From Patescibacteria group bacterium (GTDB lineage: Bacteria; Patescibacteriota; Patescibacteriia; UBA2196), in contig JAQTPI010000002.1 of assembly GCA_028748975.1 (NCBI GenBank), positions 1 through 49,212 of the forward strand: a DNA stretch of 49,212 nt. Direction: 5' to 3'. The number at the start of each line of letters is the position of its first letter. Position 1 is the first letter of the stretch. The translations under genes were made by a program, and so were the position numbers. Positions 15,857 through 32,450 of this stretch are shown one piece after another. The notes under the pieces were generated by a model that was not told the origin of the DNA, did no database searches, and worked only from the letters and a program-made list of their open reading frames with translations.

Positions 15857-17047
15857 ATGAAACGAATATATTTTGACCACGCGGCGACGACGCCGGTTGA
15901 TAAAAAAGTAATGAAGGCGATGAAGCCGTATTTTTGCGATGTCTTTGGCAACCCGTCTTCACTCCATTCTTTTGGCCAAGAAGCGATGAAAGCAGTGGAC
16001 GAAGCGCGCAACAAGGTTGCTAAGTTTTTGAATTGCGACCGGGAAGAAGTAATTTTTACCAGCGGAGCGACCGAGGCAAATAACCTTGCAATACGAGGGG
16101 TACTGAAATCAGAAATTAGAAATCAGAAATCAGGAACAGACAATAAACTACATGTTATAACTACAGCGTTTGAACATCCGGCGGTTTTAGAAACGGTGAA
16201 AGATTTGGAAAAATCTGGTTTAATCGAAGCGAGCTATGTGATGCCGGGCGCTGATGGAATAGTGAAAACTGAAGATATTGAGAAAGAAATCAGAGATAAC
16301 ACAATTTTAGTTTCGGTGATGTATGTGAATAATGAAATTGGAACGATTCAGCCAATTAAAGAAATTAGCGAAGTTATCAAAAGAATGAATGAGGGCCGGC
16401 CGAATAAAATTTTATTTCACATCGACGCGGTGCAAGCGGCACTTTATTGCGAGATGAAAGTTGGGGAATTGGGCGTGGATTTGCTTGCCATGTCCGGACA
16501 TAAAATTTACGGGCCGAAAGGCATTGGCGTTTTGTATGTTAAAAAATCAGTAAAATTAAAACCAATCCAAACTGGCGGGCACCACGAGTTTGGACTTCGC
16601 GCGGGAACTTTGAATACGCCGTTAATTGCTGGTATGGGTCGGGCAGTAGAATTAATTAAAAAAAGAAACACCAAGAAAGTGGCGGAATCGCGCGATTATC
16701 TTTGGACTAAATTGCAAAGAAATATTTCCGGAATTAAATTGAATGGCGAGATGGTGCGCCGAGTGCCCAGTAATTTGAATGTCAGTATTTTGGGAGTGGA
16801 AGGCGAGGCACTTTTGCTTGGACTGGATATGGAAGGCATTGCCATTTCCACCGGTTCGGCCTGTTCTTCGGGGTCCTTGGAGCCATCACATGTTTTGATG
16901 GCGATTGGTTTAAGCCATGAGGAAGCGCACGGCAGTTTGCGGATTACTTTGGGCGAAGAAAACAATGAAAGCGAATGCGATGAATTGATAAAAAAATTAA
17001 CGCCCTTGGTGGAGCGTTTTAGGCAAATGGCGCCGAAAACAGAATGA
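15857..17047 (+). CDS. iscS: Cysteine desulfurase (IscS/NifS group I)
   Basis: YFDHAATTP, SGHKIYGPKG (PLP Lys), STGSACSSGS. Confidence 0.95.
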   Translation: MKRIYFDHAATTPVDKKVMKAMKPYFCDVFGNPSSLHSFGQEAMKAVDEARNKVAKFLNCDREEVIFTSGATEANNLAIRGVLKSEIRNQKSGTDNKLHVITTAFEHPAVLETVKDLEKSGLIEASYVMPGADGIVKTEDIEKEIRDNTILVSVMYVNNEIGTIQPIKEISEVIKRMNEGRPNKILFHIDAVQAALYCEMKVGELGVDLLAMSGHKIYGPKGIGVLYVKKSVKLKPIQTGGHHEFGLRAGTLNTPLIAGMGRAVELIKKRNTKKVAESRDYLWTKLQRNISGIKLNGEMVRRVPSNLNVSILGVEGEALLLGLDMEGIAISTGSACSSGSLEPSHVLMAIGLSHEEAHGSLRITLGEENNESECDELIKKLTPLVERFRQMAPKTE

Positions 17048-17107
17048 TTGGAAAGAGGAATTAGGGAATAAATAATTAATAGTTCCACAATAATAAATGA
17101 CTATTTA

Positions 17108-17884
17108 CTAGGCGCTAAGTAACTGTTTAAATTCTTCTTCATACATGTCGGCCAATTCGGAAGAGATTTCAGGCAGGGCGTTGGATTTTTCGGCAACCCA
17201 AACCATTTGTTGGTCGGTTTTAGAAAATATTTTTGGATAATCCTGGAGCAGAGCGCCAAAGCCCGCTCCTTTTTTTATTTGATTGGCCATGTCAAAAAGT
17301 GTTTGGCGATAGGCGCGATTTTTTACGGCTCTGGCAGTAATGTTTAGGGCGAACACTTGAGGAACACCCATTTTTAAGAGGCAAGAGAAAACGCGCCAAA
17401 AGCGGGCGGAATTTTCTTTTTGGGCGGCGCGTTTGTTGAAAAAACGAGTAAGCGCGGCGCGGCGTTTGGCCGAATTGAGCCGTTGTTCTTTTTGGAGAAG
17501 TAGAGCCAATTGCTGGAAAGAGTTTTTTAGATTATCATTTTCTTCACCAGCCGCGATAAGGCTGATAAAAATTTCGTCAAAAATTTTTGGATAGTTTTTA
17601 AGTGTGCCAGAAAGAGGTTTGCCGGCGTCTAGGTTTTTAAGGACGTCGGCTATAATTTTTTTAAGGGCGCGAGCGGGGGTTTGTTTTTCCAAAGCCGCGA
17701 GCGCTTTTTTCAAGGGCAGTTCGGCTTTGAGCATGGTGGCAAGGTGTTGAACCAGATAGATTTTTTGCGCCAAAGACACCTGCCCATAAATTTTGGCGGG
17801 AATTGGTTCGCGGCCGCCAACAGTTCTTTTTATGAGCGGCATAATTTCAACGGTCTGTTTTTTGATTTTATTATTGATTGACAT
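17108..17884 (-). CDS. pilC: PilC/GspF family protein, internally shortened
   Basis: Two GspF-like repeats (LATMLKAELPL...AAGEENDNL; LLKMGVP...VAEKSNAL) but no hydrophobic TM stretch. Confidence 0.75.
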   Translation of the reverse strand: MSINNKIKKQTVEIMPLIKRTVGGREPIPAKIYGQVSLAQKIYLVQHLATMLKAELPLKKALAALEKQTPARALKKIIADVLKNLDAGKPLSGTLKNYPKIFDEIFISLIAAGEENDNLKNSFQQLALLLQKEQRLNSAKRRAALTRFFNKRAAQKENSARFWRVFSCLLKMGVPQVFALNITARAVKNRAYRQTLFDMANQIKKGAGFGALLQDYPKIFSKTDQQMVWVAEKSNALPEISSELADMYEEEFKQLLSA

Positions 17885-17971
17885 GAAAAATTAGATATGC
17901 TAAATTATATTTGTTCATTTCACAACCAGGTAAAGGCCTCTGGGCCAAAAGGAGGAATGGTGAAAGAGATT
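17878..17971 (+). promoter_or_regulatory. 94-bp promoter/leader/RBS unit, copy 1
   Basis: TTGACA-17-TG-TAAATT, leader, AGGAGG, ATGGTGAAAGAGATT; near-identical to 18429-18522. Confidence 0.85.
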
Positions 17972-18379
17972 AACTCACGAAATTTTTGGACTTTTGTCTG
18001 GACCATCGCTATTTATAGCGTAGTGATGTATCTGATGAAAAATTATCTCTCGTCGTTTTTTGTGGCGAATATGGCGATAGCTGTAGTAATGACTATAATG
18101 ATTTTTATAGCCGTTTGTCGGAAGGATGGAGTGGGTCTGGCGGCAAGTTGTTCAGCCGTGTTTTCCGCCGCTTTGATGATAAACTACGTTACTTATCGAG
18201 TAGATCCGTTTGTTTTTGTATTTTCAGGGGCAGCATTGGTGTTTATGTTTTTGGCAGCTTTTGAAGCAGCAGAACAACAAAATGTTAAATATGGGAAAGT
18301 TTTTTTATCAATGATGGTTCAGGTGATTGCCAACATTGGCGCTTTTTGGGGTCTTGGATATCTTATTACAAAACCATAA
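17957..18379 (+). CDS. Small polytopic membrane protein (paralog 1)
   Basis: Start placed after AGGAGG (ATG 17957 or GTG 17960); about five hydrophobic segments. Confidence 0.72.
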   Translation: MVKEINSRNFWTFVWTIAIYSVVMYLMKNYLSSFFVANMAIAVVMTIMIFIAVCRKDGVGLAASCSAVFSAALMINYVTYRVDPFVFVFSGAALVFMFLAAFEAAEQQNVKYGKVFLSMMVQVIANIGAFWGLGYLITKP

Positions 18380-18387
18380 TCGGTATC

Positions 18388-18421
18388 TCTCCGTTTCGGT
18401 CAAACCGAACGGGGATTTTTA
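18388..18421 (+). terminator. Intrinsic terminator, copy 1
   Basis: CCGTTTCGGT-CAA-ACCGAACGG + T tract; repeated at 18932. Confidence 0.7.
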
Positions 18422-18428
18422 TTATCGC

Positions 18429-18522
18429 TTGACATGAAAAATCAGGTATGCTAAATTATATTTGTTCATTTCACAACCAGGTAAAGGCCTCTGGGCCAAA
18501 AGGAGGAATGGTGAAAGAGATT
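18429..18522 (+). promoter_or_regulatory. 94-bp promoter/leader/RBS unit, copy 2
   Basis: Direct repeat of 17878-17971. Confidence 0.85.
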
Positions 18523-18921
18523 GTAAGGTGGAATGTGTCGCTTTTTATTCTTGCCACCATCGTCTATGTCGTAGAGTTTTATTTTACAAAAGACATCAGA
18601 GCAGCAACGGTGATGCTCATGTTGCTTTCTTTTTTAGTGGCCTTGGTCTCAGCTCGGGGTAAGGATTGGGTGGGAGCTTCGGCAGCTTCAGCAGCATTTT
18701 TCTCCACCATTCCAATAAGGATAATCATCCCGCTGGTTTCTTTAGAAAATATTTCTTTGCTTTTGGTGGCCGTCTCATCTGTATTTTTGGCGGTCTTATT
18801 CATCTCTGAGATTAAGAAAAAAACAGATATTAAGAGCTGGAAGATTGTTTTACCGATGGTTTTGCAGATCGCTGCCAATCTCGGTGTTTTCTTGAATATC
18901 AAACATTTTATTGGCAAATAA
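18508..18921 (+). CDS. Small polytopic membrane protein (paralog 2)
   Basis: Same leader; weak similarity to paralog 1 (G.G.AAS.A..S; K.....M..Q..AN.G.F). Confidence 0.72.
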   Translation: MVKEIVRWNVSLFILATIVYVVEFYFTKDIRAATVMLMLLSFLVALVSARGKDWVGASAASAAFFSTIPIRIIIPLVSLENISLLLVAVSSVFLAVLFISEIKKKTDIKSWKIVLPMVLQIAANLGVFLNIKHFIGK

Positions 18922-18931
18922 GTTTTACGTT

Positions 18932-18969
18932 TCCCCGTTTCGGTCAAACCGAGATGGGGATTTTTTTTT
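18932..18969 (+). terminator. Intrinsic terminator, copy 2
   Basis: TCCCCGTTTCGGTCAAACCGAGATGGGGA + T tract. Confidence 0.7.
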
Positions 18970-19001
18970 ATTTATTTTTACTAGATTATTGAATTATTAG
19001 A

Positions 19002-20207
19002 TTATTCCTTCACCACCCTTATCACTTCTTCCAGCGTCGTAATTCCTTCTTTGGCTTTAAGCAAAGCGTCTTCGGCCAAAGTCAGCAGGCCTTTTTCTTT
19101 CGCTTTTTGGCGGATTTTTTCCGCGGGAATATTTTTCATAATCATTTCACCGATGGCGGTGTCAATTTCTAAAACTTCAAAAACACCAATTCGGCCAACA
19201 TAGCCGGTTTTCCCGCATTTCTGGCAACCCTTGCCTATGTAAAAACGTTGAGAAATCTTTTTCAACTCATCGTGTTTAAAATTTTTCTCCAGTTCCGCGA
19301 TCATTTTTTTGGAAGGTTTATGGGCAGCGCGGCAGTTTTCGCAAATTTTTCTGACTAAACGCTCCGCAATGATGACGTTGGTGGCGGAGGCAATCAGAAA
19401 TGGTTCAATTTTCATATTGATCAGATGTGACAGGGCAGTGGTGGTATTTTTGGCAGGAAGAGTAGAAAATAATTGGTGCCCGGTAATGGCGGCGTGGAGA
19501 GCGAGCTCGGCTGTTTTTTGGTCTTCAATTTCACCGACCATAATAATTTTTGGGTTTTGGCGGAGAAGAGCGCGGAGACCGGAAGCAAAAGTGTAGCCGA
19601 TTTTATGATTGATTTGCGATTGCTGGACGCGCGGCAGACAGTATTCAGACTGATCTTCAATGGTAGCGATTTTGGCGCCTGGTTTGTTTAAAAGGTTTAA
19701 AATAACATAGAGCGCGGTGGTTTTACCGCTGTGAGCGGGACCGGTAACTAAAATCAGGCCACTGGGTTTTTTAATGTTGCGTTTGATGGTTTCCAGGATC
19801 GACGGCTGGAAACCCAATTGTGCCAAAGTGAGCGTCGATGAGGACTCGTTTAAAAGGCGCAGAACAACTTTTTCGCCGTCAGAAACAGGAATGATGGAAA
19901 CATGGAAAGAAATTCGATGGTCATTGGTTTTCATTTGAAAATGGCCGTCCTGAGGCCGGCGATGTTCGCTTGGTTTTAAGTTGGCGAGAATTTTGATGCG
20001 GGCGACAAGGCCGGCCAGAGACTGGCGGGGCAGAGTCATGACTTCGCGTAAAACGCCGTCTACGCGGTAACGGACCGCCAGTTCGTCTTCCCGCGGTTCC
20101 AGATGGATGTTGGAGGCATTTTCAAAAATGGCGCATTCCAAAAGCGCGTTTAAAATTTTTGTAGCTGCCATTTTTTTAACTTTTTTTTCAAGTTTAGTTT
20201 GCGGCAT
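19002..20207 (-). CDS. pilB: GspE/PilB family secretion ATPase with degenerate motifs
   Basis: ASNIHLEP, RYRVDGVL, GPAHSGKTT Walker A, two CxxC pairs, GRIGVFE; start moved to ATG at 20207. Confidence 0.88.
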   Translation of the reverse strand: MPQTKLEKKVKKMAATKILNALLECAIFENASNIHLEPREDELAVRYRVDGVLREVMTLPRQSLAGLVARIKILANLKPSEHRRPQDGHFQMKTNDHRISFHVSIIPVSDGEKVVLRLLNESSSTLTLAQLGFQPSILETIKRNIKKPSGLILVTGPAHSGKTTALYVILNLLNKPGAKIATIEDQSEYCLPRVQQSQINHKIGYTFASGLRALLRQNPKIIMVGEIEDQKTAELALHAAITGHQLFSTLPAKNTTTALSHLINMKIEPFLIASATNVIIAERLVRKICENCRAAHKPSKKMIAELEKNFKHDELKKISQRFYIGKGCQKCGKTGYVGRIGVFEVLEIDTAIGEMIMKNIPAEKIRQKAKEKGLLTLAEDALLKAKEGITTLEEVIRVVKE

Positions 20208-20372
20208 AATCTTCAAAATTAACCACGAGTTTTATCCGGTAAAAATTTTGATTTATTTCTGATATAATTATACCATACTTTATTGTTTGACGAGAAGATT
20301 AATGTGCCGGGTGTTCTTTTTATTACCCCATTTATTACCATTTTTTTATCAAGGGTGATATAATAGAAATAT

Positions 20373-20717
20373 ATGCTACCGATATTTTTTCGCAATAAAG
20401 TCATCAAATGGAACTTGCTCGGCGGGGTGGTAATCAACCTGGCGGTTTGGATTTTTTTGTACTGGCAGGTGCAGCCGCAGGTTGACCCGATTTTTTTGCG
20501 CTATAACATCTATTTTGGCCCCAGTTTGATTGGCCCGTGGTGGCAAATTTTCTTTTTGCCGCTTTTTGGTTTGGGCGTGCTTTTGGCGAATTATATTTTG
20601 GCAGGGCTAGCATTTAAAAAAGAAAGGTTTGTTTCCTACTTTTTCGCCTATGGCGCCAGTTTAGTGCAGATACTTTTGGCAATCTTGGCGGTTTATTTGG
20701 TGGGGATAAATGGGTAA
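20373..20717 (+). CDS. Hypothetical membrane protein
   Basis: 114 aa, three hydrophobic segments, IFLRYNIYFG motif. Confidence 0.75.
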   Translation: MLPIFFRNKVIKWNLLGGVVINLAVWIFLYWQVQPQVDPIFLRYNIYFGPSLIGPWWQIFFLPLFGLGVLLANYILAGLAFKKERFVSYFFAYGASLVQILLAILAVYLVGING

Positions 20718-20842
20718 CCCCGTAGTTTATCCCGAGCGGCCTTTAGAGAAATTAGGAGCCGAGGGATCTCGTTTTTGATTTAAGATTTACGATTTATGAT
20801 TTAAGGATTATTTATTAACGAATTACGAATTAACGAATTTTT

Positions 20843-20871
20843 TGTCATCCCGGGCTTGACCCGGGATCCAG
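20843..20871. repeat. dRS3-like half element
   Basis: TGTCATCCCGGGCTTGACCCGGGATCCAG, matches the reverse complement of the right arm of the inner element at 7569-7638. Confidence 0.8.
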
Positions 20872-20922
20872 AAAATAAAAAACCCCGACATGGTGATCGG
20901 GGGATATGCCAACAGACAAGCT

Positions 20923-21174
20923 CTAATTTTTGAAAAGATATTTTCTCAAGTTTTCTTTTTTGATTTTGAAATAATCAGAACCCATTCGATCATCTTTAAT
21001 AATTGAGTCGTCAAAAAAAATAAGCGGGGATACGGTTATTTCCGTTCGATGTCCCCAATAATCTTTGTCAAATTCTTGGCGCACGAGCACAAATTCATCT
21101 GGTTTGGCAAGAGCCAATTGTGCGCCAGCAACAAATAATTTTACATAACCGTAGGGTATATTTGCCGGTTCCAC
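20923..21174 (-). CDS. Hypothetical protein, 83 aa
   Basis: AAGGAGG SD before GTG; own promoter at 21210-21252. Confidence 0.68.
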   Translation of the reverse strand: MEPANIPYGYVKLFVAGAQLALAKPDEFVLVRQEFDKDYWGHRTEITVSPLIFFDDSIIKDDRMGSDYFKIKKENLRKYLFKN

Positions 21175-21297
21175 CTGTAGCCTCCTTTTTGGTTAAATTG
21201 TTTTTTTTCTTGTAATTTAAGCGTAGCATGAGGCGAAAAGAGAGTCAAGTGGTAATTTTGTTTTTATGCTTTAATGCTAACATGCTAAAATGTTTTT

Positions 21298-21996
21298 ATG
21301 CTTCAACCAAATCCAGGCAAGAATTTAGAAATAGAAGTTAGGGGCAAGGTTTTTTGGCGTTATCCGATTAAGACAAAAATTATTACCAAAGATGATAAAT
21401 TGGAAGATGTAATTAAAGAATATGTGATGCCGCATTATGAAAAAGGGGATATTGTAGCGATGTCAGAAAGAATGGTGGCAGTGACGCAGGGAAGATTAAT
21501 CCATGAAAGTGAAATCAAGGCAAGCGGACTCGCAAAGTTTTTGGTGAAGTTTGTAAAAAAATGGCCCAATGACCCGGGTTTTCGGAATGCCAAAAAAATG
21601 CAGGTGGCGATTAATATGATTGGGGTGCCGCGCATGCTTTTGGCGGCATTTGTTTCGGCCATAACCAAGCCATTTGGCATTCGCGGTTTATTTTATAGAA
21701 TTTGCGGACATGGAGTTTCGGAAATTGATGGCTTTGCGCCGGGCACAATTCCACCGTATGACCAATACGCGGTTTTGGGGCCGGAAAATCCGCGCGGAGT
21801 TTGTAATAATTTGGCAAAAAAATTCGGCGTGGAAGCGGTGATTGTGGATGCCAATAATATTGACGTGGCAATACTCGGCACGAGCGATAATTTATCAATC
21901 ATGCCAGCTGAATTTCGTTTGGCTTTTTTGGATAATCCGATTGGGCAGGGCTTGGAGCAAACGCCGATTTGTATAGTCAGAAGGAAAATTGTATAA
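21298..21996 (+). CDS. F420-0:gamma-glutamyl ligase (CofE)-like domain protein
   Basis: YPIKTKII, AMSERMVAVTQGR, IVDANNI, IGQGLEQTP motifs. Confidence 0.75.
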   Translation: MLQPNPGKNLEIEVRGKVFWRYPIKTKIITKDDKLEDVIKEYVMPHYEKGDIVAMSERMVAVTQGRLIHESEIKASGLAKFLVKFVKKWPNDPGFRNAKKMQVAINMIGVPRMLLAAFVSAITKPFGIRGLFYRICGHGVSEIDGFAPGTIPPYDQYAVLGPENPRGVCNNLAKKFGVEAVIVDANNIDVAILGTSDNLSIMPAEFRLAFLDNPIGQGLEQTPICIVRRKIV

Positions 21997-22053
21997 TAAA
22001 GAGGAAATAAAAAAGCTCCAACCAGATAAAATTAGTTGGAGCGATGTCGGTTG

Positions 22054-22203
22054 TTATCTTGTGATTTTCGAAATACAAAGAAAGCCACTGGCCATTACGA
22101 TCAATATACCAACTTCCGGAAAATGTTGAAAGGCCAGTAAGATGCCTGCAGACATAAGAAATAGGTGGCCAACAAAATTATAGGCACGAGCTTTTCCCGA
22201 CAT
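22054..22203 (-). CDS. Small two-TM protein, 49 aa
   Basis: AAGGAGG SD, ATG at 22203. Confidence 0.6.
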   Translation of the reverse strand: MSGKARAYNFVGHLFLMSAGILLAFQHFPEVGILIVMASGFLCISKITR

Positions 22204-22216
22204 GTTTGCCTCCTTT

Positions 22217-22423
22217 TTATTTTTTGTTTCCAGACGGACCAAATATGCTTCGGCCGAATACGTCCTTGTGTTTAGACAGACCAAATATAGATCCGGCTAA
22301 AATGAAAAATAAGCCGGCCAGGCCAGTATTTTTTTGTATTAACATAAAACCACCGAGTACAAGAAATAAAGACGTGAGAGCGTTGGCAATATTAGAAAGG
22401 TTTTTGTCTGCATTTTGTGCCAC
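22217..22423 (-). CDS. Small two-TM protein, 68 aa
   Basis: AAGGAGG SD, GTG start, own promoter at 22462-22504. Confidence 0.62.
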   Translation of the reverse strand: MAQNADKNLSNIANALTSLFLVLGGFMLIQKNTGLAGLFFILAGSIFGLSKHKDVFGRSIFGPSGNKK

Positions 22424-22737: not shown

Positions 22738-22800
22738 CAAATCACAATAATCACAAGATGATTATTAGAAATTGAAAATTGAAAATTACAAATTAACTTT

Positions 22801-25819: not shown

Positions 25820-25946
25820 CAAGGTTCTCGTGTTTTCCTCCTTTTGATATGATGTTTTTTGATCAAATTAAATTTATACCCAAACTAAAAAAATGTCAAA
25901 TTTAAGTGGATAAGTGAAGTGTGGTATAATATAGATAATAAATATT

Positions 25947-26957
25947 ATGTGGTTTACTCCCAAAATTATTAAAAAAATTGAGAAAGCGGGCTTAATCGGC
26001 CGCGGGTGCAACAACTTTCCCGTGGCGAGAAAATGGGAAGCAGTAAGAAAGGCCCGGGGCAAAGAGAAGTTTGTGATCTGCAATATTTCCGAGTCCGAAC
26101 CCGGGGTTTTTAAGGACCGCCATATTTTGCGCCATCACCCAGAAAGAGTAATTGACGGCATGATTTTGGCTATGGATACTGTTGGCGCGAAAAATGGATT
26201 TATTTATTTAAATCCGGAATATTTTACCGAATTTAATGCCAAACTGCGAGAAATAATTGATTTGAAAATCGGTGGAATCGGCATGATTGAACTTTTTGAA
26301 AAACCTTTTCACGACTACATCGGCGGGGATGAAACCGCGCTTTTGAATTCGCTGGAAGGCAAGCGGGTGGAGCCGAGATTGAAACCGCCCTATCCGGTGA
26401 ATTTTGGTTTGGAGGGCAAACCCACCTTGATTAATAATTGTGAAACTTTTTATGCCATAAGTTTGATTGCTGAAAACAAATACAAAAATACCAAATTTTA
26501 TTCTCTGTCCGGCGCGGGCGTGGAAACAGCGGTAAAAGAATTGCCGGTGGACATTACTGTTAAAAAAATGCTCCAGGAATTCGACCACGAGCCGAGTGAA
26601 AAATATTTCTATCAAGTCGGCGGAGGAGCGGCTGGCACTTGCTATAATTTCAAGCAATTGAATAGAAAATTTGACGGCTTGGCTTCAGTTATAATTTATA
26701 GTATGGAAGAATCGCCTAAAAATGTGGTGATGAAGTGGCTGAATTTTTTTGAAGACGAATCCTGCGGACAGTGCGTGCCCTGCCGCGAAGGAACCTATCG
26801 TTTGAGGAATTTGATGAGAAAATATTTTGAAACAGAAAATTTAGATAAAGAAATTTTTGACGATTTGGTTTTCACTTTGGAAAATACTTCCTTTTGCGCG
26901 TTGGGCAAAGTTTCCACCAATGCGGTTTTGAGTTATTTGAAAAACGTGAGGAAATAA
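25947..26957 (+). CDS. NuoF/HydB-like FMN/NADH-binding subunit (short form)
   Basis: GRGCNNFP, NISESEPG, YIGGDETALLNSLEG, ESCGQCVPCREG...SFCALG (one 4Fe-4S). Confidence 0.88.
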   Translation: MWFTPKIIKKIEKAGLIGRGCNNFPVARKWEAVRKARGKEKFVICNISESEPGVFKDRHILRHHPERVIDGMILAMDTVGAKNGFIYLNPEYFTEFNAKLREIIDLKIGGIGMIELFEKPFHDYIGGDETALLNSLEGKRVEPRLKPPYPVNFGLEGKPTLINNCETFYAISLIAENKYKNTKFYSLSGAGVETAVKELPVDITVKKMLQEFDHEPSEKYFYQVGGGAAGTCYNFKQLNRKFDGLASVIIYSMEESPKNVVMKWLNFFEDESCGQCVPCREGTYRLRNLMRKYFETENLDKEIFDDLVFTLENTSFCALGKVSTNAVLSYLKNVRK

Positions 26958-26968
26958 AAAACTGTCTC

Positions 26969-27127
26969 CTATGAGACAGTTTCCGCCGGACAGTTTGTTG
27001 CCATCCATGTGATGAGAAGAGGGGATGTTCCCACGACGAACGGGGCGGCCGCTCCTTTTGTAAGAATTAACAGGCCCCATACGGCGATGGCTGTGACCCA
27101 GACTGCAACCTTTTCTCTTGTTTTCAT
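26969..27127 (-). CDS. Small membrane peptide, 52 aa
   Basis: AAGGAG SD, TTGACA-17-TATACT promoter (27190-27162). Confidence 0.55.
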   Translation of the reverse strand: MKTREKVAVWVTAIAVWGLLILTKGAAAPFVVGTSPLLITWMATNCPAETVS

Positions 27128-27294
27128 TTTTGTTTTTCTCCTTGTTTGTGATTGTGTGTTTAGTATATCATATTTAAAAATTATTGTCAAGCGATTTTTG
27201 GGGATAATTTTCGGAAAATGCCAAATTTTGGCTAAGATTAGCGGAAATTTAGCCACGAATTAATGCGAATTTAGGGCGAATTTTGCGAATAATT

Positions 27295-27410
27295 ACAACC
27301 CCTCTGTTCCGCTGTTGCGGAACACCTCCCCTTCGAAAGGGGAGGATAGCGACGCGGTTATCCCCTCCTTTCGAAGGAGGGGTGGCCGATAGCAATCGGC
27401 CGGGGTGGTT
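27295..27410. repeat. Pair of oppositely oriented CCCCTCC-family elements
   Basis: 27295-27348 and 27358-27410; similar pair at 42304-42427. Confidence 0.85.
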
Positions 27411-27463
27411 GTAATTTGCGTAAAATCGCGTATAAACTCGCGTGGAATCGCGATTATAAAGAA

Positions 27464-29407
27464 ATGAAAAAAATAAAATTCACAATCAACGGCAAAGAAT
27501 ATTTCGCGAAAAAAGGCGAGACGGTTTTGGATGTGGCTTTGCGCGAAAAAATTGAAATTCCACATTTGTGCAAGCATCCGGATCTGAAAATCAAAGGCAA
27601 CTGCCGGATGTGCTTGGTGGAGGCAGGCGGCCAAATTACCACCGCTTGTTCCACCGAAGTTCTGCCCGATTTGACAATCAAAACCAACACTAAAGAAGTG
27701 GAGCGCGGACGAAAAATAAATTTGGAATTGATTTTTTCCGAACACATTGAAAAATGTCCGACCTGCCTTTACCAAGACAATTGCACAATTTTAAAATATG
27801 CCGCCAAATATAATGTAAAAATCGCGCGGTTTGAAGACCGCAAGAAAAATTTTCCGGTTTGGCAGTTTTCCGATTCCATCCAATTTGATTCTTCCAAATG
27901 TATTGATTGCCGCAATTGCGAAGAGGTTTGCCGCGAAAAACAAGCGTGCAGTTTTTATGAAATTACGGAAGATAAGGGGGAAGACCAAATTATAAAACCC
28001 AAAGGGGAAGCAAACGGAAATCAGAAATTAGAAACCAGAAATCAGGGGGTAGACTTGTTAAAAAACGATCCGAATAAATTTGACTGCACCTATTGCGGGC
28101 AGTGCGTGACGCATTGTCCGGTCGGCGCCATTGCCGGTGTGTCGCACTGGCAGGCAGTGGAAAAATTATTACAAAATAAAAATGGCAAGGTTTTGATAGC
28201 GGAAATCGCGCCGTCAATTCGTGTTTCCATTGGCGAAGAATTCGGACAAGATTACGGCAAAATTATGACGGGACAATTGGCCGCTTCCATGAAAGCGCTT
28301 GGTTTTGATTATGCTTTTGATGTTAATTTGGGCGCGGATTTTACCACCTATGAAGAAGCTAAAGAATTGGTTAAATGGATTACCGAAGATAAACCGCGGC
28401 CGATGTTCACTTCCTGCTGTCCAGCTTGGGTGAAATTCGTGGAATTTTTCTATCCCGAATTTATTTCGCATTTAACTTCTGCCAATTCCCCTCACATGTG
28501 TTCCGGCCCGGTGATTAAAACTTTTTTTGCCGATTATTTGAAAAAAGACCCGCGCGATATTGAAATTGTTTCCATTATGCCTTGTACTTCCAAAAAACAC
28601 GAAATTGGTTTAGAAAAGCATCGAATTGATTTGGGCTGGTGTCTGGAACGGCTGGACTTGCCAAATATCGCCAGTGTTTGCCAAAGCCGCGGCGGATTGG
28701 CGGGGATTAAAGTGCCGGCGGTGGACCATATTTTGACCACGCGCGAATACGCATTTCTTTTGCATAAAAATAAAATTGATTTGCCAAATTTGAAACCAAT
28801 TGATTTGGACAGGCCACTCGGCGTGTCTTCCGGCGCCGGCGCGATTTATGGCGCTTCGGGCGGGGTCATGGAGTCCGCGCTCCGCAGCGCCGATTATTTT
28901 TTCCGTGTTTTAGACGAAACCGGTTCACTTGACCCGGTCATTAAGGGTGAAAATTATAAATTAAAGAAGAAAAGATTTTCTAAAATTTCTCAAAGCCGGA
29001 TTGAATTCAGAGAAGCGCGGGGACAGGCGGGAATTAAAACCGCACGCGTGAAAGTTGGGGGCAGAAAGTTAAATATCGCGGTGGCCAATGGCTTGGGTAA
29101 TGCCAAGAAAATTTTGGAAGATTTGAAAGCCGGCCGCGTCAAATATGATTATGTGGAGGTGATGGCCTGTCCCGGCGGCTGTATTGGCGGCGGAGGACAG
29201 CCGATTCCGACCAACGCGGAAATCAGAGCGAAGCGAGCGGCGGCTTTATATGAAATTGATAAAAATTTGCCAGTGCGCACGGCGCATGAAAATCCCAGTG
29301 TTTTGGAGGTTTATAACAAATATTTCAAAGGCGATGAAGAATTAATTGAGCATGTTTTGCATTCTAAGTTTAAAGTAAAGGAGCGCGAAGGTTACAAAGA
29401 GGTGTAG
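27464..29407 (+). CDS. hydA: [FeFe]-hydrogenase catalytic subunit (group A, M3-type architecture)
   Basis: 2Fe-2S (HLC..GNCRMC..TAC), HxxxCxxCxxxxxC, two 4Fe-4S (CIDCRNC, CTYCGQC), H-cluster motifs TSCCPAW, MPCTSKKHE, EVMACPGGCIGG; start moved to ATG at 27464. Confidence 0.93.
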   Translation: MKKIKFTINGKEYFAKKGETVLDVALREKIEIPHLCKHPDLKIKGNCRMCLVEAGGQITTACSTEVLPDLTIKTNTKEVERGRKINLELIFSEHIEKCPTCLYQDNCTILKYAAKYNVKIARFEDRKKNFPVWQFSDSIQFDSSKCIDCRNCEEVCREKQACSFYEITEDKGEDQIIKPKGEANGNQKLETRNQGVDLLKNDPNKFDCTYCGQCVTHCPVGAIAGVSHWQAVEKLLQNKNGKVLIAEIAPSIRVSIGEEFGQDYGKIMTGQLAASMKALGFDYAFDVNLGADFTTYEEAKELVKWITEDKPRPMFTSCCPAWVKFVEFFYPEFISHLTSANSPHMCSGPVIKTFFADYLKKDPRDIEIVSIMPCTSKKHEIGLEKHRIDLGWCLERLDLPNIASVCQSRGGLAGIKVPAVDHILTTREYAFLLHKNKIDLPNLKPIDLDRPLGVSSGAGAIYGASGGVMESALRSADYFFRVLDETGSLDPVIKGENYKLKKKRFSKISQSRIEFREARGQAGIKTARVKVGGRKLNIAVANGLGNAKKILEDLKAGRVKYDYVEVMACPGGCIGGGGQPIPTNAEIRAKRAAALYEIDKNLPVRTAHENPSVLEVYNKYFKGDEELIEHVLHSKFKVKEREGYKEV

Positions 29408-29571
29408 CCAGTGGTTTATCCCGAGCGATCCAAAGTACTTGGGGGAGCCGAGGGATCTCGGTTGAAGGTAATAAGTAACTAGTAATAAGTAATAAGGGCG
29501 ACAAAAAAATAAAATCGCCCCAGTTTGCAACTGAAGCGATAAGAGCGAATGTTTTTTGTAGTTTTGAAAAA

Positions 29572-29766
29572 TTAGGTTTCTAATACTTCGGTCGCACAAT
29601 GAGTACAATATTTGTCTTCGGGTCTTAATTCTTTTCCGCAAGTTTTACATTTTGGATAAATTATTTCTTTAAGCCTTCTGCCACAGCGATTACAGAAAAT
29701 AGCACCAAGACCAAATAACGTATCGCCATACCTTGTGCAAGCTCGATTTTCGCAAACTTTTGACAT
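29572..29766 (-). CDS. Double zinc-ribbon protein, 64 aa
   Basis: Four Cys pairs; GGGAG SD. Confidence 0.7.
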   Translation of the reverse strand: MSKVCENRACTRYGDTLFGLGAIFCNRCGRRLKEIIYPKCKTCGKELRPEDKYCTHCATEVLET

Positions 29767-29857
29767 TCCTTTCTCCCTTTCTGACTTTTTAGGCCATTTT
29801 GTGTGATTTATGAAGGTTCGATAATTACAGACTAATTATAGCGCAGTTTAAAATTTT

Positions 29858-30448
29858 ATGTCAATAGCTACAACTTTATCCAAAATTCGAGTTGGTTATC
29901 TGATTAAATTTATTTTACTTCTGGCGCTGGCTACTGGCGCGCCGATTTTGGGGATTCATTCGCAGTGGCTTACCGGACCGATTGTTAATATGGCTTTAAT
30001 TTTAAGCGTGTTTTTGGTCGGCGTGCGCGGGGCGGTTTTAATCGGGCTTTTGCCTTCCACCATCGCACTTGGCACGGGACTTTTGCCAGCGGCGCTCGCA
30101 CCCATGGTGCCTTTTATTATTATTTCAAATATAATTTTAGTATTTTGTATTTCTTTTTTCCGTCATTCCGAGGGAGGTCCGATGAATATCGGACCGACCG
30201 ATGGAATCTCGGTTGAAGACCCCATCGCTTCGCTCGGGATGACGAATAAAAAATACTGGCTTGGTTTACTTTTTGCCGCCGGCCTGAAATTTCTTTTCCT
30301 TTTCCTAACTTCCGGTATCGTGATAAAATTACTGTTGAATCAAAAGCTCGCGCTCCCCGTGGCACAAATGATGAGCTGGCCCCAGTTTTATACCGCGCTT
30401 ATTGGTGGAATTTTAGCGTTTGTGGTTTTGAAAATTTTAAAAAAATAA
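29858..30448 (+). CDS. ECF transporter S-component-like membrane protein with an in-frame element insertion
   Basis: QWLTGPIVNMAL...PFIIISN...KF.FLF...QFYTALIGG pattern of S components. Confidence 0.75.
   Translation: MSIATTLSKIRVGYLIKFILLLALATGAPILGIHSQWLTGPIVNMALILSVFLVGVRGAVLIGLLPSTIALGTGLLPAALAPMVPFIIISNIILVFCISFFRHSEGGPMNIGPTDGISVEDPIASLGMTNKKYWLGLLFAAGLKFLFLFLTSGIVIKLLLNQKLALPVAQMMSWPQFYTALIGGILAFVVLKILKK
30161..30244. repeat. GTCAT...ATGAC element, 84 bp, in frame in the ECF S-component gene
   Basis: Translates as RHSEGGPMNIGPTDGISVEDPIASLGMT. Confidence 0.9.
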
Positions 30449-30514
30449 TCAAAATTCTAACTGCCTTTAGGCAAGGTTTTGACCTCCCCTAAAGGGGGTT
30501 AGAAATTAAATTCT

Positions 30515-30772
30515 ATGGACAAAAATCTCAAACTCCAAATTTTGGAGCAAATGTCTGGTCTTGTCACCGCCGGACTAGGGTTGGTGGCGGCTTTGGCCTG
30601 GAACGAAGCCATTAAGAAAATGTTTGAAAAAATCTTCGGCAGCCAGTCCAATTTAATCGCCATGTTCGGCTACGCGGTTTTGGTCACGGTTTTGGTGGTT
30701 ATACTTTCCATGCGCATTGGTAAATTGGTGGCGAAGTTGAAATCCACGAATAATGCTAATGAGGGCGAATAG
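30515..30772 (+). CDS. Small two-TM protein (DUF5654-like)
   Basis: LVTAGLGLVAALAWNEAI...YAVLVT motif. Confidence 0.75.
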   Translation: MDKNLKLQILEQMSGLVTAGLGLVAALAWNEAIKKMFEKIFGSQSNLIAMFGYAVLVTVLVVILSMRIGKLVAKLKSTNNANEGE

Positions 30773-30838
30773 CGCGAATTTTGAAGGAATAAAAAAACCG
30801 GAGTAAGGATGTCTCCGGTTATCAAAATGTTGTGTAAA

Positions 30839-31078
30839 TTATTTTATCCGCACTGCTTCTATTAAATTTTTAAAGCCATTTTTAATTTCAAGTTCGGTGA
30901 CTGCTGTTAATTTTGTAAAATTGCCTTCAAGACTGGCAGCAAGGGTGAGAATTGCCTGGGATAAAGCAAGGGTTGCCGTAACCTGAGCTCCGGGAAAATT
31001 TTCTTGTTCAAGTTCACGCAAGCATTGTTCCTGAGACTCTTTTGTTTGATTTTCATAGACACACGAAAAGCTTTTCAT
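30839..31078 (-). CDS. Hypothetical protein, 79 aa
   Basis: AAGGAG SD; promoter TTGACA-17-TATACT (31176-31148). Confidence 0.65.
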   Translation of the reverse strand: MKSFSCVYENQTKESQEQCLRELEQENFPGAQVTATLALSQAILTLAASLEGNFTKLTAVTELEIKNGFKNLIEAVRIK

Positions 31079-31169
31079 TTACAGCTCCTTCCTTTTTTGG
31101 CTCAATTGAGCCGTTATTGTGAGTTGTTTATATGGTTGTGATTTTTAAGTATAGCATGTTTAATTTTTT

Positions 31170-32450
31170 ATGTCAAATCCGAAAATTAAGTCCATAAAAG
31201 CAATTAAAAATCTGAAAAATAAAACAGTGCTTGTGCGCTGTGATTTTGATGTTCCGTTGAAACAACAAACAACAAACAACAAACAACAAACGACAAAAAA
31301 GTCGTCAGTTGTAAGTTGTAAGTTGTCGGTTGCTGACGACTCGCGGCTGCGGGCGGCAACTCCGACGATAAAATATCTTTTATCAAAAGGCGCGAGAGTG
31401 GTTTTGATGGGACACCTTGGCAGACCGGGCGGAGTGGTGAAAAAGGAATTGTCACTTTTGCCGGTGAAAAATCGATTGGGAAAATTACTTGGTGAGAAAA
31501 TAAGTTTTATATCTGACGAGATCCCATCGCTCGCTACGCTCGCTCGGGATGACGGTCGGTTGATAATGTTGGAAAATCTGCGCTTCAATCCCGGCGAGGA
31601 GAAAAATGACCCTAAATTTGCCAAGAAATTGGCGAAATTGGGCGATATTTATGTTAATGAGGCCTTTGCCGTCTCGCACCGAAGCGCGGCTTCGGTGGAC
31701 GCCATAAAAAAGTTTTTGCCATCTTATGCCGGTTTGAATTTGGAGCAGGAAATTTTACATCTGTCGGCGGTTCTAAACAAACCGCAAAAACCAATGGTGG
31801 CCATCATCGGCGGCGCGAAGATTGAAACTAAACTGCCAATGATCAAACAATTTTTGAAATCCGCGGATTACATTTTAATCGGCGGGGGAGTGGCGAATGA
31901 TTTTTTGAAAGCAAGGGGTTATGAGATTTATGGGTCGTTGGTGGACGATGATTATATAAATGAAGCCGGTAAAATATTAAAGAAATCAGAAATCGGAAAT
32001 CAGAAATCAGGAGAAGCAAAGTTAATTTTGCCAATAGATGTTGTTTGGTCTGACAATAAAATCAGGAGTTTATCCGCCGGAGCGTCTAAAGGGACGCCGG
32101 GGAGCGCAGGCGGAAAAACTCCAAAAATTTTGGATATCGGGCCGAAAACAATTTGGTTGTTTAGTGGTATAATTAAGAAAGCCAAGACGATTGTCTGGAA
32201 CGGTCCCATGGGCTATTTTGAAGACAAAAAATTTGCAACGGGCACAGAGAAAATAGCTGAAGTAATTTTGGCTAATAAAAAAGCGCAAAGAATAATTGGT
32301 GGTGGTGAAACAGGGGAAGTAATACAAAAAATAATCAGAAATCAGAAATCAGAAATTAGGAAAAATATTTTTATTTCCATTGGTGGTGGCGCCATGCTAG
32401 AGTATCTTGGAGGTAAAAAATTACCCGGATTGGATAAATTAATTAAATAG
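31170..32450 (+). CDS. pgk: Phosphoglycerate kinase (four repeat-derived segments)
   Basis: VRCDFDVP, HLGRP, LENLRF, GGAKIETK, WNGPMG, GGGET, SIGGGA. Confidence 0.96.
   Translation: MSNPKIKSIKAIKNLKNKTVLVRCDFDVPLKQQTTNNKQQTTKKSSVVSCKLSVADDSRLRAATPTIKYLLSKGARVVLMGHLGRPGGVVKKELSLLPVKNRLGKLLGEKISFISDEIPSLATLARDDGRLIMLENLRFNPGEEKNDPKFAKKLAKLGDIYVNEAFAVSHRSAASVDAIKKFLPSYAGLNLEQEILHLSAVLNKPQKPMVAIIGGAKIETKLPMIKQFLKSADYILIGGGVANDFLKARGYEIYGSLVDDDYINEAGKILKKSEIGNQKSGEAKLILPIDVVWSDNKIRSLSAGASKGTPGSAGGKTPKILDIGPKTIWLFSGIIKKAKTIVWNGPMGYFEDKKFATGTEKIAEVILANKKAQRIIGGGETGEVIQKIIRNQKSEIRKNIFISIGGGAMLEYLGGKKLPGLDKLIK

What the first reader, a model, noticed from the sequence alone, without database searches (positions are those of the whole stretch)
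16105..32360. A conserved 30-nt GAAATCA x4 block sits in frame in three unrelated enzymes
Seen: iscS 16105-16134 GAAATCAGAAATTAGAAATCAGAAATCAGG; hydA 28017-28046 GAAATCAGAAATTAGAAACCAGAAATCAGG (one difference); pgk 31982-32011 GAAATCAGAAATCGGAAATCAGAAATCAGG and 32333-32360. The peptides are KSEIRNQKSG, GNQKLETRNQG and KSEIGNQKSG. Local slippage would not reproduce the same imperfect unit and the same GG end at distant loci. Inference: heptamer blocks are copied as units by an unknown mechanism and tolerated in surface loops.
Basis: partly seen in the sequence, partly recalled or inferred. Interest (0 to 1): 0.7.

Follow-up and report, generated by a model that had tools for sequence, protein, structure and literature searches.

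The report
In-frame heptamer microsatellites in enzyme loops
Four short runs of the 7-base unit GAAATCA sit in frame inside three housekeeping enzymes of an uncultured Patescibacteria (CPR) bacterium. They behave as slippage-type heptanucleotide repeats that grow in three-unit (21-base) steps inside tolerant protein loops, not as a 30-base cassette pasted between genes, but why one genome reuses one unit at several genes is still unexplained.

Summary
(GAAATCA)x4 blocks lie in frame in a cysteine desulfurase, a [FeFe]-hydrogenase and twice in phosphoglycerate kinase (14 motif hits against 1.07 expected). They belong to a wider pattern. Period-7 tandem arrays are the dominant repeat class in this window and its relatives, and most lie inside genes. 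Of 120 related PGKs, 27 carry peptides that can only come from tandem heptamers.

Orthologue DNA argues against a copied 30-nt cassette:
- At the iscS site a relative has three decayed units. The window has exactly +21 nt (unit 1 expanded by three copies). A second relative also has exactly +21 nt, but expanded the neighbouring unit (GGAGCTG x4).
- At the hydA site, orthologous arrays share a left boundary but differ in unit: GAAATCA, GAAACTR, GAGACAA.
- The "GG" end there is a conserved glycine codon.
- The shared imperfect unit is a C>T at one of only four Cs.

The best explanation is in-situ slipped-strand turnover in three-unit steps, inside loops that tolerate insertions. This is a coding-region variant of the known bacterial heptanucleotide repeats.

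One point is unexplained. Arrays at different genes in one genome share the same unit (GAAATCA x4 here, GAGACAA x2 in the closest relative). Some exchange between loci, or a genome-specific bias, cannot be excluded.

The parts
16105..16134 (+). (GAAATCA)x4 + GG array in the cysteine desulfurase (IscS/NifS-like) gene; peptide KSEIRNQKSG (aa 84-93).
   Evidence: One search shows it is +21 nt relative to L125.
15857..17047 (+). Host gene 1: class-V aminotransferase / cysteine desulfurase.
   Evidence: Pfam PF00266, E 1.9e-80. PDB IscS homologues show a 7-residue gap at the array.
28017..28046 (+). GAAATCA GAAATTA GAAACCA GAAATCA GG array in the [FeFe]-hydrogenase gene; peptide GNQKLETRNQG. It lies between the two CxxCxxCxxxC motifs of the ferredoxin-like domain.
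   Evidence: Orthologous arrays in L250, L129 and L123.
27464..29407 (+). Host gene 2: group A [FeFe]-hydrogenase HydA-like. The mechanical ORF starts at TTG 27416; ATG 27464 matches the homologues.
31982..32011 (+). GAAATCA GAAATCG GAAATCA GAAATCA GG array in pgk (site 1); peptide KSEIGNQKSG (aa 272-281).
   Evidence: Relatives carry other units at the same site.
32331..32360 (+). ATAATCA GAAATCA GAAATCA GAAATTA GG array in pgk (site 2); peptide IIRNQKSEIR (aa 388-397).
   Evidence: At the same site L120 has AAAGTCA x5, L121 has ATTATCAG x4, L129 has AATGAAA x4, and L123 has the same unit as the window.
31170..32450 (+). Host gene 3: phosphoglycerate kinase. It carries four heptamer arrays and one GC-rich hairpin insert.
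   Evidence: Pfam PF00162, E 2.2e-117. Alignment A1. AlphaFold model.
31260..31326 (+). Same class, different unit: (AAACAAC)x5.4 followed by (AGTTGTA)x4. This inverted pair of arrays is in frame in pgk (aa 31-54).
   Evidence: The fold is -27.7 kcal/mol, z -5.5. The orthologous site in L129 has (GAGACAA)x4.
33033..33069 (+). Same class: (GAATTAC/TTACGAA)x4-5 in the enolase gene. It has the same length as a decayed array in the relatives.
42660..42690 (+). Same class: (AATGAAA)x4.4 in a pseudouridine synthase gene (S4 + PseudoU_synth_2).
5293..5528 (+). Same class: T-rich heptamer arrays (GTTAGTT at 5293-5320; TTGTTTA at 5496-5528) in a membrane glycosyltransferase-like ORF. They encode hydrophobic stretches.
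2916..2939 (-). Same class: (TTGTTAA)x3.4 on the + strand, lying in a minus-strand 760-aa ORF.

Best explanation
The four blocks are heptanucleotide simple-sequence repeats, that is, long-unit microsatellites, embedded in frame in loop-coding parts of essential genes of a Patescibacteria (CPR) genome.

How they behave:
- They stay for long periods at fixed, insertion-tolerant sites.
- They turn over in place by slipped-strand mispairing. A unit within an older, decayed array is re-amplified.
- Because the unit is 7 nt, only changes of three units (21 nt = 7 aa), or compensated combinations, survive in an essential gene. One seed plus three copies gives the typical 'four units, about 30 nt'.
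- Every reading frame of a heptamer array gives the same 7-aa cycle (EIRNQKS). That cycle is polar and free of stop codons on the sense strand only, because the complement contains TGA. This explains the orientation.
- The peptides are most likely neutral or slightly deleterious passengers in surface loops.

Shown here: the existence, frame and loop position of the arrays; the 21-nt step at iscS; the orthology and unit drift at hydA, pgk and eno; and the lineage-wide prevalence.

Inferred: slippage as the enzymatic cause, and the neutrality of the peptides.
For: 1. Period 7 dominates the tandem repeats. The window has 13 arrays at period 7 against 0-4 at periods 4-12. Under a stricter score the count is 6 against 0-2 in the window and 5 against 0-1 in unbiased relatives. 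In the window, 10 of 12 arrays lie in long ORFs.
2. iscS codon alignment. L125 (78% aa identity) reads CTG|AAATCAG|AAACTGG|AAACAAA|CCG. The window reads CTG|AAATCAG|AAATTAG|AAATCAG|AAATCAG|GAACAGA|CAATAAA|CTA, which is exactly +21 nt. L127 (85%) reads TTG|AAGTCGG|GAGCTGG x4|AGATAAA|CCG, also exactly +21 nt, but with the second unit amplified. L126 (86%) has an array-free loop.
3. hydA. All arrays follow GGN-GAR. The window has GAAATCA x4, L250 (88%) has GAAACTR x5, L129 (89%) has GAGACAA x4 and L123 (72%) has GAAATYA x5. The GG after the array is a conserved Gly codon (GGG/GGA/GGC) before (V/A)DLLKND.
4. Enolase. The window's four identical GAATTAC units have the same length and register as GAATTAG GAATTAA GAATTAT GGxxTAC in L129 and L121.
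5. pgk sites 1, 2 and N carry different units in each relative. L120's ATTAAAGC x4 is visibly seeded from the native flank ATCATTAAAG.
6. 27 of 120 CPR PGKs, 3 of 120 IscS and 1 of the 119 other HydA homologues (P0242) contain at least 8 aa that exactly match a three-frame heptamer translation. Three such hits occurred in 20x shuffled PGK and IscS proteins.
7. The arrays fall at gaps against PDB homologues and in the low-pLDDT segments of the PGK model.
8. The GAAATCA blocks have no secondary structure (z -0.5 to +1.4).
9. Literature read here: heptanucleotide repeats are the most abundant long-unit SSR class in many bacteria, and slippage with a roughly 7-nt polymerase contact has been proposed (Mrazek 2007, as summarised in PMC4679880 and PMC4692102).
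Against: 1. Simple local slippage does not explain why different genes in one genome carry the same unit.
   - The window has GAAATCA at 4 of about 10 coding arrays.
   - L129 has perfect (GAGACAA)x4 in both hydA and pgk.
   - Sample 3300037067 has GAAACTG at both iscS (L125) and hydA (L250), if the two contigs come from one organism.
   - Exact unit sharing is about 4-7% of within-genome pairs against about 1% between genomes. My estimate of chance sharing for A-rich composition is about 0.3% (this is my own calculation, not a tool result).
   - Single GAAATCA words are not enriched (5 observed, 6.4 expected). GAAATCA is not a general attractor: viral contigs give 8 arrays against 16, 3 and 5 for composition-matched units.
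2. Stepwise +7 or +14 intermediates would be frameshifts in essential genes, so three units must be gained in effectively one event.
3. No copy-number polymorphism was seen in three metagenome samples. Only contigs were available, and contigs hide rare variants.
4. The window and the more distant L123 share GAAATYA at hydA and pgk site 2, while closer relatives do not. This needs either many independent replacements or convergence.
Confidence: 0.6

Rival explanations
1. Copying between loci. Arrays at different genes exchange sequence by ectopic gene conversion or template switching between nearby arrays, or pre-formed arrays are written into break sites from a genome-specific template. Dispersed arrays in one genome would then evolve in concert.
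For: - Arrays within a genome are more alike than orthologous arrays between genomes. Window iscS against hydA is 29/30, while window hydA against L250 or L129 hydA differs in the unit.
- L129 has identical (GAGACAA)x4 plus G in two genes 2.7 kb apart.
- The four window arrays lie within 16 kb.
- The same (GAAATCA)4GG form occurs in DNA polymerase I of a Kuenenbacteria MAG (L085). An identical 30-mer occurs in a glycosyltransferase-like ORF of a metagenome contig (L150).
- A one-step in-frame birth is easier by insertion than by stepwise slippage.
Against: - The iscS site shows a native seed and a +21-nt difference, not +30.
- The hydA GG is a native Gly codon.
- There are no shared flanks, target duplications or terminal structure.
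- Homogenisation is not genome-wide: the window's pgk N-terminal, enolase and pseudouridine-synthase arrays use other units.
- Tracts of 28 nt are at the lower limit for RecA-type conversion (my own knowledge).
- The shared variant is statistically weak (about 1 in 4).
Confidence: 0.22
2. The repeat is kept because it does something. The EIRNQKS peptide could be a functional surface module, or the DNA or RNA motif could be a protein-binding or regulatory site.
For: - The same 7-aa cycle occurs in several enzymes, and at orthologous hydA and pgk sites in a relative with only 68-72% protein identity (L123).
- The literature has proposed translational or cold-shock-protein binding roles for intergenic heptamer repeats (PMC4679880).
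Against: - Closest relatives carry unrelated units or no array at the same sites, so neither the peptide nor the motif is conserved.
- The sites are low-confidence loops.
- There is no RNA structure.
- Many different units occur in the same protein family.
Confidence: 0.07
3. A miniature mobile element that inserts in frame, like the Rickettsia palindromic elements or a MITE.
For: - In-frame insertion in unrelated housekeeping proteins resembles RPEs.
- The relatives do carry a GC-rich palindromic sequence (CCACGGGATCCCTC...) in three different reading frames in HydA, enolase and IscS. Such elements therefore exist in this clade.
Against: - The GAAATCA blocks have no inverted repeat, no conserved ends, no target duplication and no fold.
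- They are tandem units whose number and sequence vary by orthologue.
Confidence: 0.03
4. An assembly or sequencing artefact.
For: Short-read assemblers can mis-resolve tandem repeats, and Logan contigs break at several arrays.
Against: - Contigs from three independent runs span all four arrays with zero differences.
- The reading frames stay open.
- The same kind of arrays occurs in MAGs from many studies and in isolate genomes.
Confidence: 0.01

Closest known systems
Heptanucleotide long simple-sequence repeats (LSSRs) of bacteria (Mrazek, Guo & Shah 2007, as summarised in PMC4679880 and PMC4692102)
   Same: Both are tandem direct repeats of a 7-nt unit with a few copies per array. They occur at many loci per genome, and period 7 is favoured over neighbouring periods. 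Slippage is the proposed cause.
   Different: In the literature these repeats are mainly intergenic. Units that are multiples of three are the ones expected inside genes. Here most arrays lie inside essential enzyme genes and change in 21-nt steps.
Genome-specific heptamer families: TAACTGA in Beggiatoaceae, Cyanobacteria and Bacteroidetes (PMC4679880); GGGAATC in Xanthomonas and GGGGAYT in Nostoc (PMC4692102); STRR repeats of Calothrix/Nostoc
   Same: One favoured heptamer recurs at many loci of one genome. Four units are preferred in the Xanthomonas/Nostoc case. Inverted pairs of arrays occur. The mechanism that spreads them is unknown.
   Different: [quoted passage not shown] GAAATCA cannot form a G-quadruplex. 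In the present case there is direct orthologue evidence for in-situ three-unit expansion.
Rickettsia palindromic elements (RPEs) inserted in frame in protein genes (Ogata et al. 2000; from my own knowledge, not read here)
   Same: Both are DNA-level repeats found in frame in unrelated housekeeping proteins, at surface positions that tolerate extra residues.
   Different: RPEs are palindromic mobile elements of about 100-150 bp with conserved sequence. The blocks here are 28-30 nt of tandem units with no palindrome or conserved ends.
Low-complexity insertions in loops of housekeeping proteins of AT-rich genomes such as Plasmodium falciparum (my own knowledge)
   Same: In both cases, slippage-generated, polar (N/K/E-rich) inserts accumulate in the surface loops of conserved enzymes in a lineage with biased composition.
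   Different: Those inserts come mostly from 3-nt or codon-level repeats. Here the unit is 7 nt, which gives a 7-aa cycle that reads all three frames of the unit.
Phase-variable contingency loci with SSRs (for example heptanucleotide repeats at Haemophilus hmw genes; PMC8262952, listed but not read)
   Same: Both involve tandem short units that are prone to slippage.
   Different: Contingency loci switch surface or virulence genes on and off through changes of one unit. Here the hosts are essential metabolic enzymes, and no length variants were seen.

Membership tests
Bacterial heptanucleotide SSRs (LSSR / STRR-like) | Head-to-tail repeats of a 7-nt unit, three or more copies | tested here: met
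   TRF reports period 7 with 3.4-4.3 copies at all four sites; my own scan agrees.
Bacterial heptanucleotide SSRs (LSSR / STRR-like) | Period 7 over-represented relative to neighbouring periods in the same genome | tested here: met
   13 arrays at period 7 against 0-4 at periods 4-12 in the window. Under the stricter score, relatives have 5 against 0-1. Viral contigs instead favour period 6 (57 against 8).
Bacterial heptanucleotide SSRs (LSSR / STRR-like) | Copy number changes by whole units between related genomes (slippage signature) | tested here: met
   At iscS the window and L127 are each exactly +3 units against L125. At hydA there are 4 units in the window and L129 against 5 in L250 and L123.
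Bacterial heptanucleotide SSRs (LSSR / STRR-like) | Predominantly intergenic and under-represented in coding DNA (as described in PMC4692102 and PMC4679880) | tested here: not met
   10 of 12 window arrays and 11 of 13 arrays in relatives lie in long ORFs; the coding fraction is 0.79-0.87. This is a typical property of the family, not a defining feature.
Bacterial heptanucleotide SSRs (LSSR / STRR-like) | Length polymorphism within a population | tested here: inconclusive
   Contigs from three runs show no indels at the arrays, but contigs drop rare variants and no raw reads were available.
In-frame mobile palindromic elements (RPE-like / MITE-like) | Inverted-repeat (hairpin) structure of the element | tested here: not met
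   MFE is 0 to -3.5 kcal/mol, with z from -0.49 to +1.43, for the four blocks plus flanks.
In-frame mobile palindromic elements (RPE-like / MITE-like) | Conserved ends or target-site duplication shared by copies | tested here: not met
   The 5' flanks are unrelated (GTACT, AAACG, TTAAA, AAAAT). The 3' GG is a native Gly codon at hydA.
In-frame mobile palindromic elements (RPE-like / MITE-like) | Filled and empty sites differ by the whole element | tested here: not met
   The iscS filled and unfilled states differ by 21 nt, and the unfilled state retains a unit.
Phase-variable contingency locus | SSR placed so that one-unit changes switch a non-essential surface or virulence gene | tested here: not met
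   The hosts are IscS, HydA, PGK and enolase, with the arrays in mid-gene. No variant lengths were seen.
G-quadruplex-forming heptamer repeats (GGGAATC / GGGGAYT type) | Four G-tracts of three or more G | tested here: not met
   The unit GAAATCA has a single G.

The most novel reading that the evidence does not exclude
In this clade of Patescibacteria, dispersed in-frame heptamer arrays do not evolve independently. A process acting across loci keeps arrays in different essential genes of one genome on the same unit while orthologous arrays in sister genomes diverge.
- Candidate processes are ectopic conversion or template switching between arrays, or a genome-specific sequence-directed enzyme that seeds or extends one heptamer.
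- The units seen are GAAATCA here, GAGACAA in the closest relative and GAAACTG in another.
- If true, this would be concerted evolution of coding microsatellites. It would give a handle on the long-unexplained spread of genome-specific heptamer families such as TAACTGA, GGGAATC and STRR.
Probability: 0.2. Interest if true: 0.7.

Novelty: new variant of a known kind. Interest (0 to 1): 0.4.

Why it matters
Heptanucleotide repeats are a known but poorly understood feature of bacterial genomes. They have been described almost entirely as intergenic. Here they are common inside essential enzymes of an uncultured CPR lineage: about a quarter of related PGKs carry one.

The orthologue series shows how a repeat whose unit is not a multiple of three can live in a gene. 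It changes in three-unit, 7-amino-acid steps at a few tolerant loops.

- This offers a simple source of loop-length and surface variation in reduced genomes.
- It warns against reading such inserts as functional motifs or mobile elements during MAG annotation and alignment.
- The sharing of a unit within a genome gives a concrete, testable entry point to the old question of how genome-specific heptamer families spread.

Tried and rejected
1. A 30-nt cassette copied as a unit. Rejected for iscS and hydA from the orthologue codon alignments.
2. Seed abundance. Single GAAATCA words outside the arrays are not enriched (5 observed, 6.4 expected).
3. GAAATCA as a universal 'attractor' heptamer. In viral contigs (GAAATCA)3 gives 8 loci. 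Composition-matched, stop-free controls give 16, 3 and 5.
4. A universal purine-rich RRRRWTY heptamer family. The non-ascertained arrays show almost no purine asymmetry (mean 4.83 against 4.69 for the null).
5. A general preference for four units. In an unbiased sample of GAAATCA...GG arrays the copy numbers fall monotonically: 3 units 44, 4 units 39, 5 units 18.
6. 'GG' as a block terminus. In metagenomes the GG is often the start of a variant unit (GGAATCA, GGAGTCA). At hydA it is a Gly codon.
7. Hairpin or RNA motif. No fold was found.
8. Source genome look-up. The window's PGK is not on record in the contig index, so a genome-wide count was not possible.
9. Population length variation. Only contigs were available and no indels were seen.
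10. Literature searches for heptamer repeats in CPR or Patescibacteria coding regions found nothing specific.
Their counts are lower bounds and their taxon mix is not a census.

Full report
**Observation.**
- 16105-16134: GAAATCAGAAATTAGAAATCAGAAATCAGG.
- 28017-28046: differs at one base.
- 31982-32011: differs at two bases.
- 32331-32360: ATAATCA GAAATCA GAAATCA GAAATTA GG.

Pairwise identity is 25-29 of 30. A two-unit probe with up to 2 mismatches finds 14 matches against 1.07 expected, and none of 100 shuffles reached 14.

The host ORFs are a class-V aminotransferase / cysteine desulfurase (15857-17047), a group-A [FeFe]-hydrogenase (27464-29407) and phosphoglycerate kinase (31170-32450). 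All blocks are in frame. Contigs from three independent landfill-metagenome runs span the arrays with no differences.

**Context in the window.** The blocks are not isolated. Tandem Repeats Finder and my own scan show that period 7 is the dominant tandem period. The window has 13 arrays at period 7 against 0-4 for periods 4-12. Several units are involved:
- AAACAAC x5 plus an inverted AGTTGTA x4 in pgk.
- GAATTAC x4-5 in enolase.
- AATGAAA x4 in a pseudouridine synthase.
- T-rich units in a membrane glycosyltransferase-like ORF.

Ten of 12 arrays lie in long ORFs, against a coding fraction of 0.79-0.87. Pfam annotation shows an ordinary chromosomal region with NifU, IscS, type IV pilus genes, NuoF-HydA, PGK, enolase, two iPGM, Fpg and SecDF. 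No transposase or reverse transcriptase is present. Homologues place the organism in the Patescibacteria / CPR, near Kuenenbacteria-like Parcubacteria.

**Position in the proteins.** Against solved structures, each block coincides with an alignment gap:
- IscS: KSEIRNQKSGTDNK against KAYQRR---G----K.
- HydA: between the two ferredoxin-type cysteine motifs.
- PGK: two 5-residue gaps.

An AlphaFold model of the PGK has mean pLDDT 82.4. Its lowest confidence falls in the array-bearing stretches: the residue 31-50 blocks score 60 and 45, 271-280 scores 69, 301-320 scores 55 and 65, and 391-400 scores 68. Most other 10-residue blocks score between about 85 and 97. 'Tolerated in loops' is therefore supported. 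Solvent exposure could not be computed.

**Orthologue evidence at iscS.** Four relatives with 78-86% identical IscS were retrieved with their DNA. In 7-nt register after the conserved Leu codon:

| Genome | Sequence |
|---|---|
| L125 | AAATCAG / AAACTGG / AAACAAA |
| Window | AAATCAG / AAATTAG / AAATCAG / AAATCAG / GAACAGA / CAATAAA |
| L127 | AAGTCGG / GAGCTGG x4 / AGATAAA |

- The window and L127 are each exactly 21 nt (three units, seven residues) longer than L125.
- The window amplified unit 1. L127 amplified unit 2, which differs from L125's unit 2 by two transitions.
- L126 keeps an array-free loop (KYQGGGK). From memory it resembles E. coli IscS, but this was not checked here.
- The GAAATCA seed and the following G are therefore native to the site, and the net change is 3 x 7, not a 30-nt cassette.

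**Orthologue evidence at hydA, pgk and eno.** Synteny (nuoF-hydA-...-pgk-eno) is conserved in L120, L121, L123/L124, L129 and L250.

*hydA.* All arrays begin right after GGN-GAR and end before a conserved Gly codon followed by (V/A)DLLKND.

| Genome (HydA aa identity) | Array |
|---|---|
| Window | GAAATCA GAAATTA GAAACCA GAAATCA |
| L250 (88%) | GAAACTA GAAACTG GAAACTA GAAACTG GAAACTC |
| L129 (89%) | GAGACAA x4, perfect |
| L123 (72%) | GAAATTA GAAACCA AAAACTA GAAATTA GAAATCA |

- L120 and L121 carry GC-rich palindromic inserts at this site instead.
- More distant HydA proteins lack the whole segment.
- The 'GG' end is the native glycine codon.

*pgk site 2.*

| Genome | Array |
|---|---|
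| Window | AATCAGA x4 |
| L120 | AAAGTCA x5 |
| L121 | ATTATCAG x4 (period 8) |
| L129 | AATGAAA x4 |
| L123 | same unit as the window |

*pgk site 1.*
- L120's ATTAAAGC x4 is visibly seeded by the native ATCATTAAAG.
- L121 has AATGTCA x4.
- L129 has only AATCAGAAA.

*Enolase.* The window's four identical units occupy the same length and register as four decayed units in L129 and L121. This is homogenisation without a change in length.

**Prevalence.** I built a dictionary of all 8-residue strings that arise from three-frame translation of a tandem heptamer.
- It finds such peptides in 27 of 120 PGK homologues, 3 of 120 IscS homologues and one HydA homologue other than the window's own protein.
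- Twenty-fold shuffled PGK and IscS proteins gave 3 hits in total.
- The hits cluster at a few PGK positions (around residues 28-40, 100-125, 270-300 and 335-400). They use many units: AAAAGTC, AAACAAG, AAAATTC, AGATTCC, AAATGTC and others.

- Matches came from Acidobacteriota, Bacteroidota, Verrucomicrobiota, Planctomycetota, Proteobacteria, Patescibacteria and some isolates.
- Many lie next to other heptamer arrays or form inverted pairs.
- Among them, (GAAATCA)4GG lies in DNA polymerase I of a Kuenenbacteria MAG (L085). The exact iscS 30-mer lies in a glycosyltransferase-like ORF (L150).

- Shared imperfect unit. Five of the seven substitutions in the four blocks are transitions, and three of those are C>T. 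Each unit has only one C. Two arrays that each have one C>T therefore share the unit with probability about 1/4, or 2/28 if any position is allowed.
- The GG end. It is a native Gly codon at hydA. At iscS it is the first bases of the next, decayed unit (GGAACAG, orthologous to GAAACTG and GGAGCTG). In metagenomes the GG is often the start of a variant unit, GGAATCA or GGAGTCA.
- Orientation. The complement TGATTTC contains TGA, so an antisense array of three or more units always meets a stop codon.
- Four units, about 30 nt. This equals one seed plus the smallest in-frame gain. In arrays not selected for coding, the copy number simply declines from 3 upwards.

**What remains unexplained.** The same unit at several genes of one genome is not chance.
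- GAAATCA accounts for 4 of about 10 coding arrays in the window.
- The closest relative, L129, has perfect (GAGACAA)x4 in both hydA and the pgk N-terminal site. The window has GAAATCA and AAACAAC at those two sites.
- Sample 3300037067 has GAAACTG at both iscS and hydA.
- Exact sharing is several-fold commoner within genomes than between them.
- Seed abundance does not account for it, nor does a general preference for GAAATCA or purine asymmetry.
- Also, +7 and +14 intermediates would be frameshifts in essential genes.

This pattern looks like concerted evolution among dispersed arrays. It matches the unexplained genome-specific heptamer families in the literature: TAACTGA, GGGAATC, GGGGAYT and STRR (PMC4679880, PMC4692102). 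I therefore keep an inter-locus process as the main rival, at about 0.2.

**Comparison with known systems.** The blocks meet the defining features of bacterial heptanucleotide SSRs: a 7-nt tandem unit, an excess of period 7, and whole-unit changes between relatives. They depart from the usual description by being mostly coding. In viral contigs the expected pattern holds: a period-6 array gives 57 loci, against 8 for period 7 and 5 for period 8. That makes the dominance of period 7 inside this lineage's genes notable. The blocks fail the tests for an RPE- or MITE-like element, having no palindrome, no conserved ends and no whole-element difference between filled and empty sites. They also fail the tests for contingency loci and for G-quadruplex repeats.

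**Verdict.** The finding is a coding-region variant of a known repeat class, with a clear 21-nt-step mechanism and one open question: why arrays within a genome share a unit. Interest is 0.4.

Noticed in passing
window 31255-31335 (pgk codons 31-54): An inverted pair of heptamer arrays, (AAACAAC)x5 and (GTTGTAA)x4 around ACGAC-AAAAAA-GTCGT, lies in frame in pgk. It folds into a strikingly periodic hairpin of five 5-bp helices separated by 2x2 loops (-27.7 kcal/mol, z -5.5; no shuffle folded as well). The closest relative has only (GAGACAA)x4 at this site.
   Followed up: partly
window 32065-32122 (pgk codons about 300-318): A GC-rich hairpin-forming insert encodes SLSAGASKGTPGSAGGKTP (-30.8 kcal/mol, z -3.3). 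It is absent from all five syntenic relatives, which are 20 codons shorter here. It falls in a low-pLDDT segment (308-313 below 50).
   Followed up: partly
L120 hydA and eno; IscS genes of L125, L127 and L128: A GC-rich palindromic sequence (core CCACGGGATCCCTC / CGGGATCCCTCG...CGGGAC) is inserted in different enzymes and is read in all three frames: TGSLASLGT in HydA, HGIPHP in enolase, RDPSSSR in IscS. It looks like a genuine in-frame REP/RPE-like element of this clade, distinct from the heptamer arrays.
   Followed up: partly
window 20700-20900 (intergenic): This stretch holds GATTTAA x4 and ATTAACGA arrays plus GC-rich hairpins (TCCCGGGCTTGACCCGGGA; CCCCGACATGGTGATCGGGG). Its depth in the three landfill metagenomes is 360-525x, against about 5-15x for its neighbours. 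The sequences are therefore shared by many genomes or copies. No tRNA gene is present in the window.
   Followed up: partly
window 41162-41206 (Fpg/MutM gene 40918-41808): A period-9 array, ATCAGGGAG x5, lies in frame in formamidopyrimidine-DNA glycosylase (peptide QGNRGDQGDQGDQGG). It is one of the few arrays in the window's coding DNA whose period is a multiple of three.
   Followed up: no
window 33033-33069 (enolase): Four identical GAATTAC units replace, at equal length and register, the decayed GAATTAG GAATTAA GAATTAT GGxxTAC of two relatives. This is homogenisation of an old array with no net change in length.
   Followed up: yes
window 5293-5528 (ORF 4217-5935, STT3/PMT_2-like membrane protein): T-rich heptamer arrays (GTTAGTT, TTGTTTA) encode hydrophobic stretches (SLVVSCWLIV, IVFCLLLIVICLL) in a membrane protein. 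A-rich units encode polar loops in the soluble enzymes. This suggests that the protein context filters which units survive.
   Followed up: no
L121 5531-5857 and 11270-11608; L125 9101-9379: Small free-standing GIY-YIG nuclease genes sit next to hydA, between pgk and eno, and between the NifU genes in relatives. They are absent from the corresponding places in the window. No link to the repeats was tested.
   Followed up: no
L026, L031, L064, L077, L100 (unclassified 'bacterium' and Thermodesulfobacteriota MAGs): A recurring intergenic module: a short hairpin (GTAGCCGTTCACGGCTT), then GAAATTR x3, then a spacer, then the inverted array. It occurs several times per contig, sometimes upstream of a small ORF. 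It appears to be a structured repeat family built from heptamer arrays.
   Followed up: no
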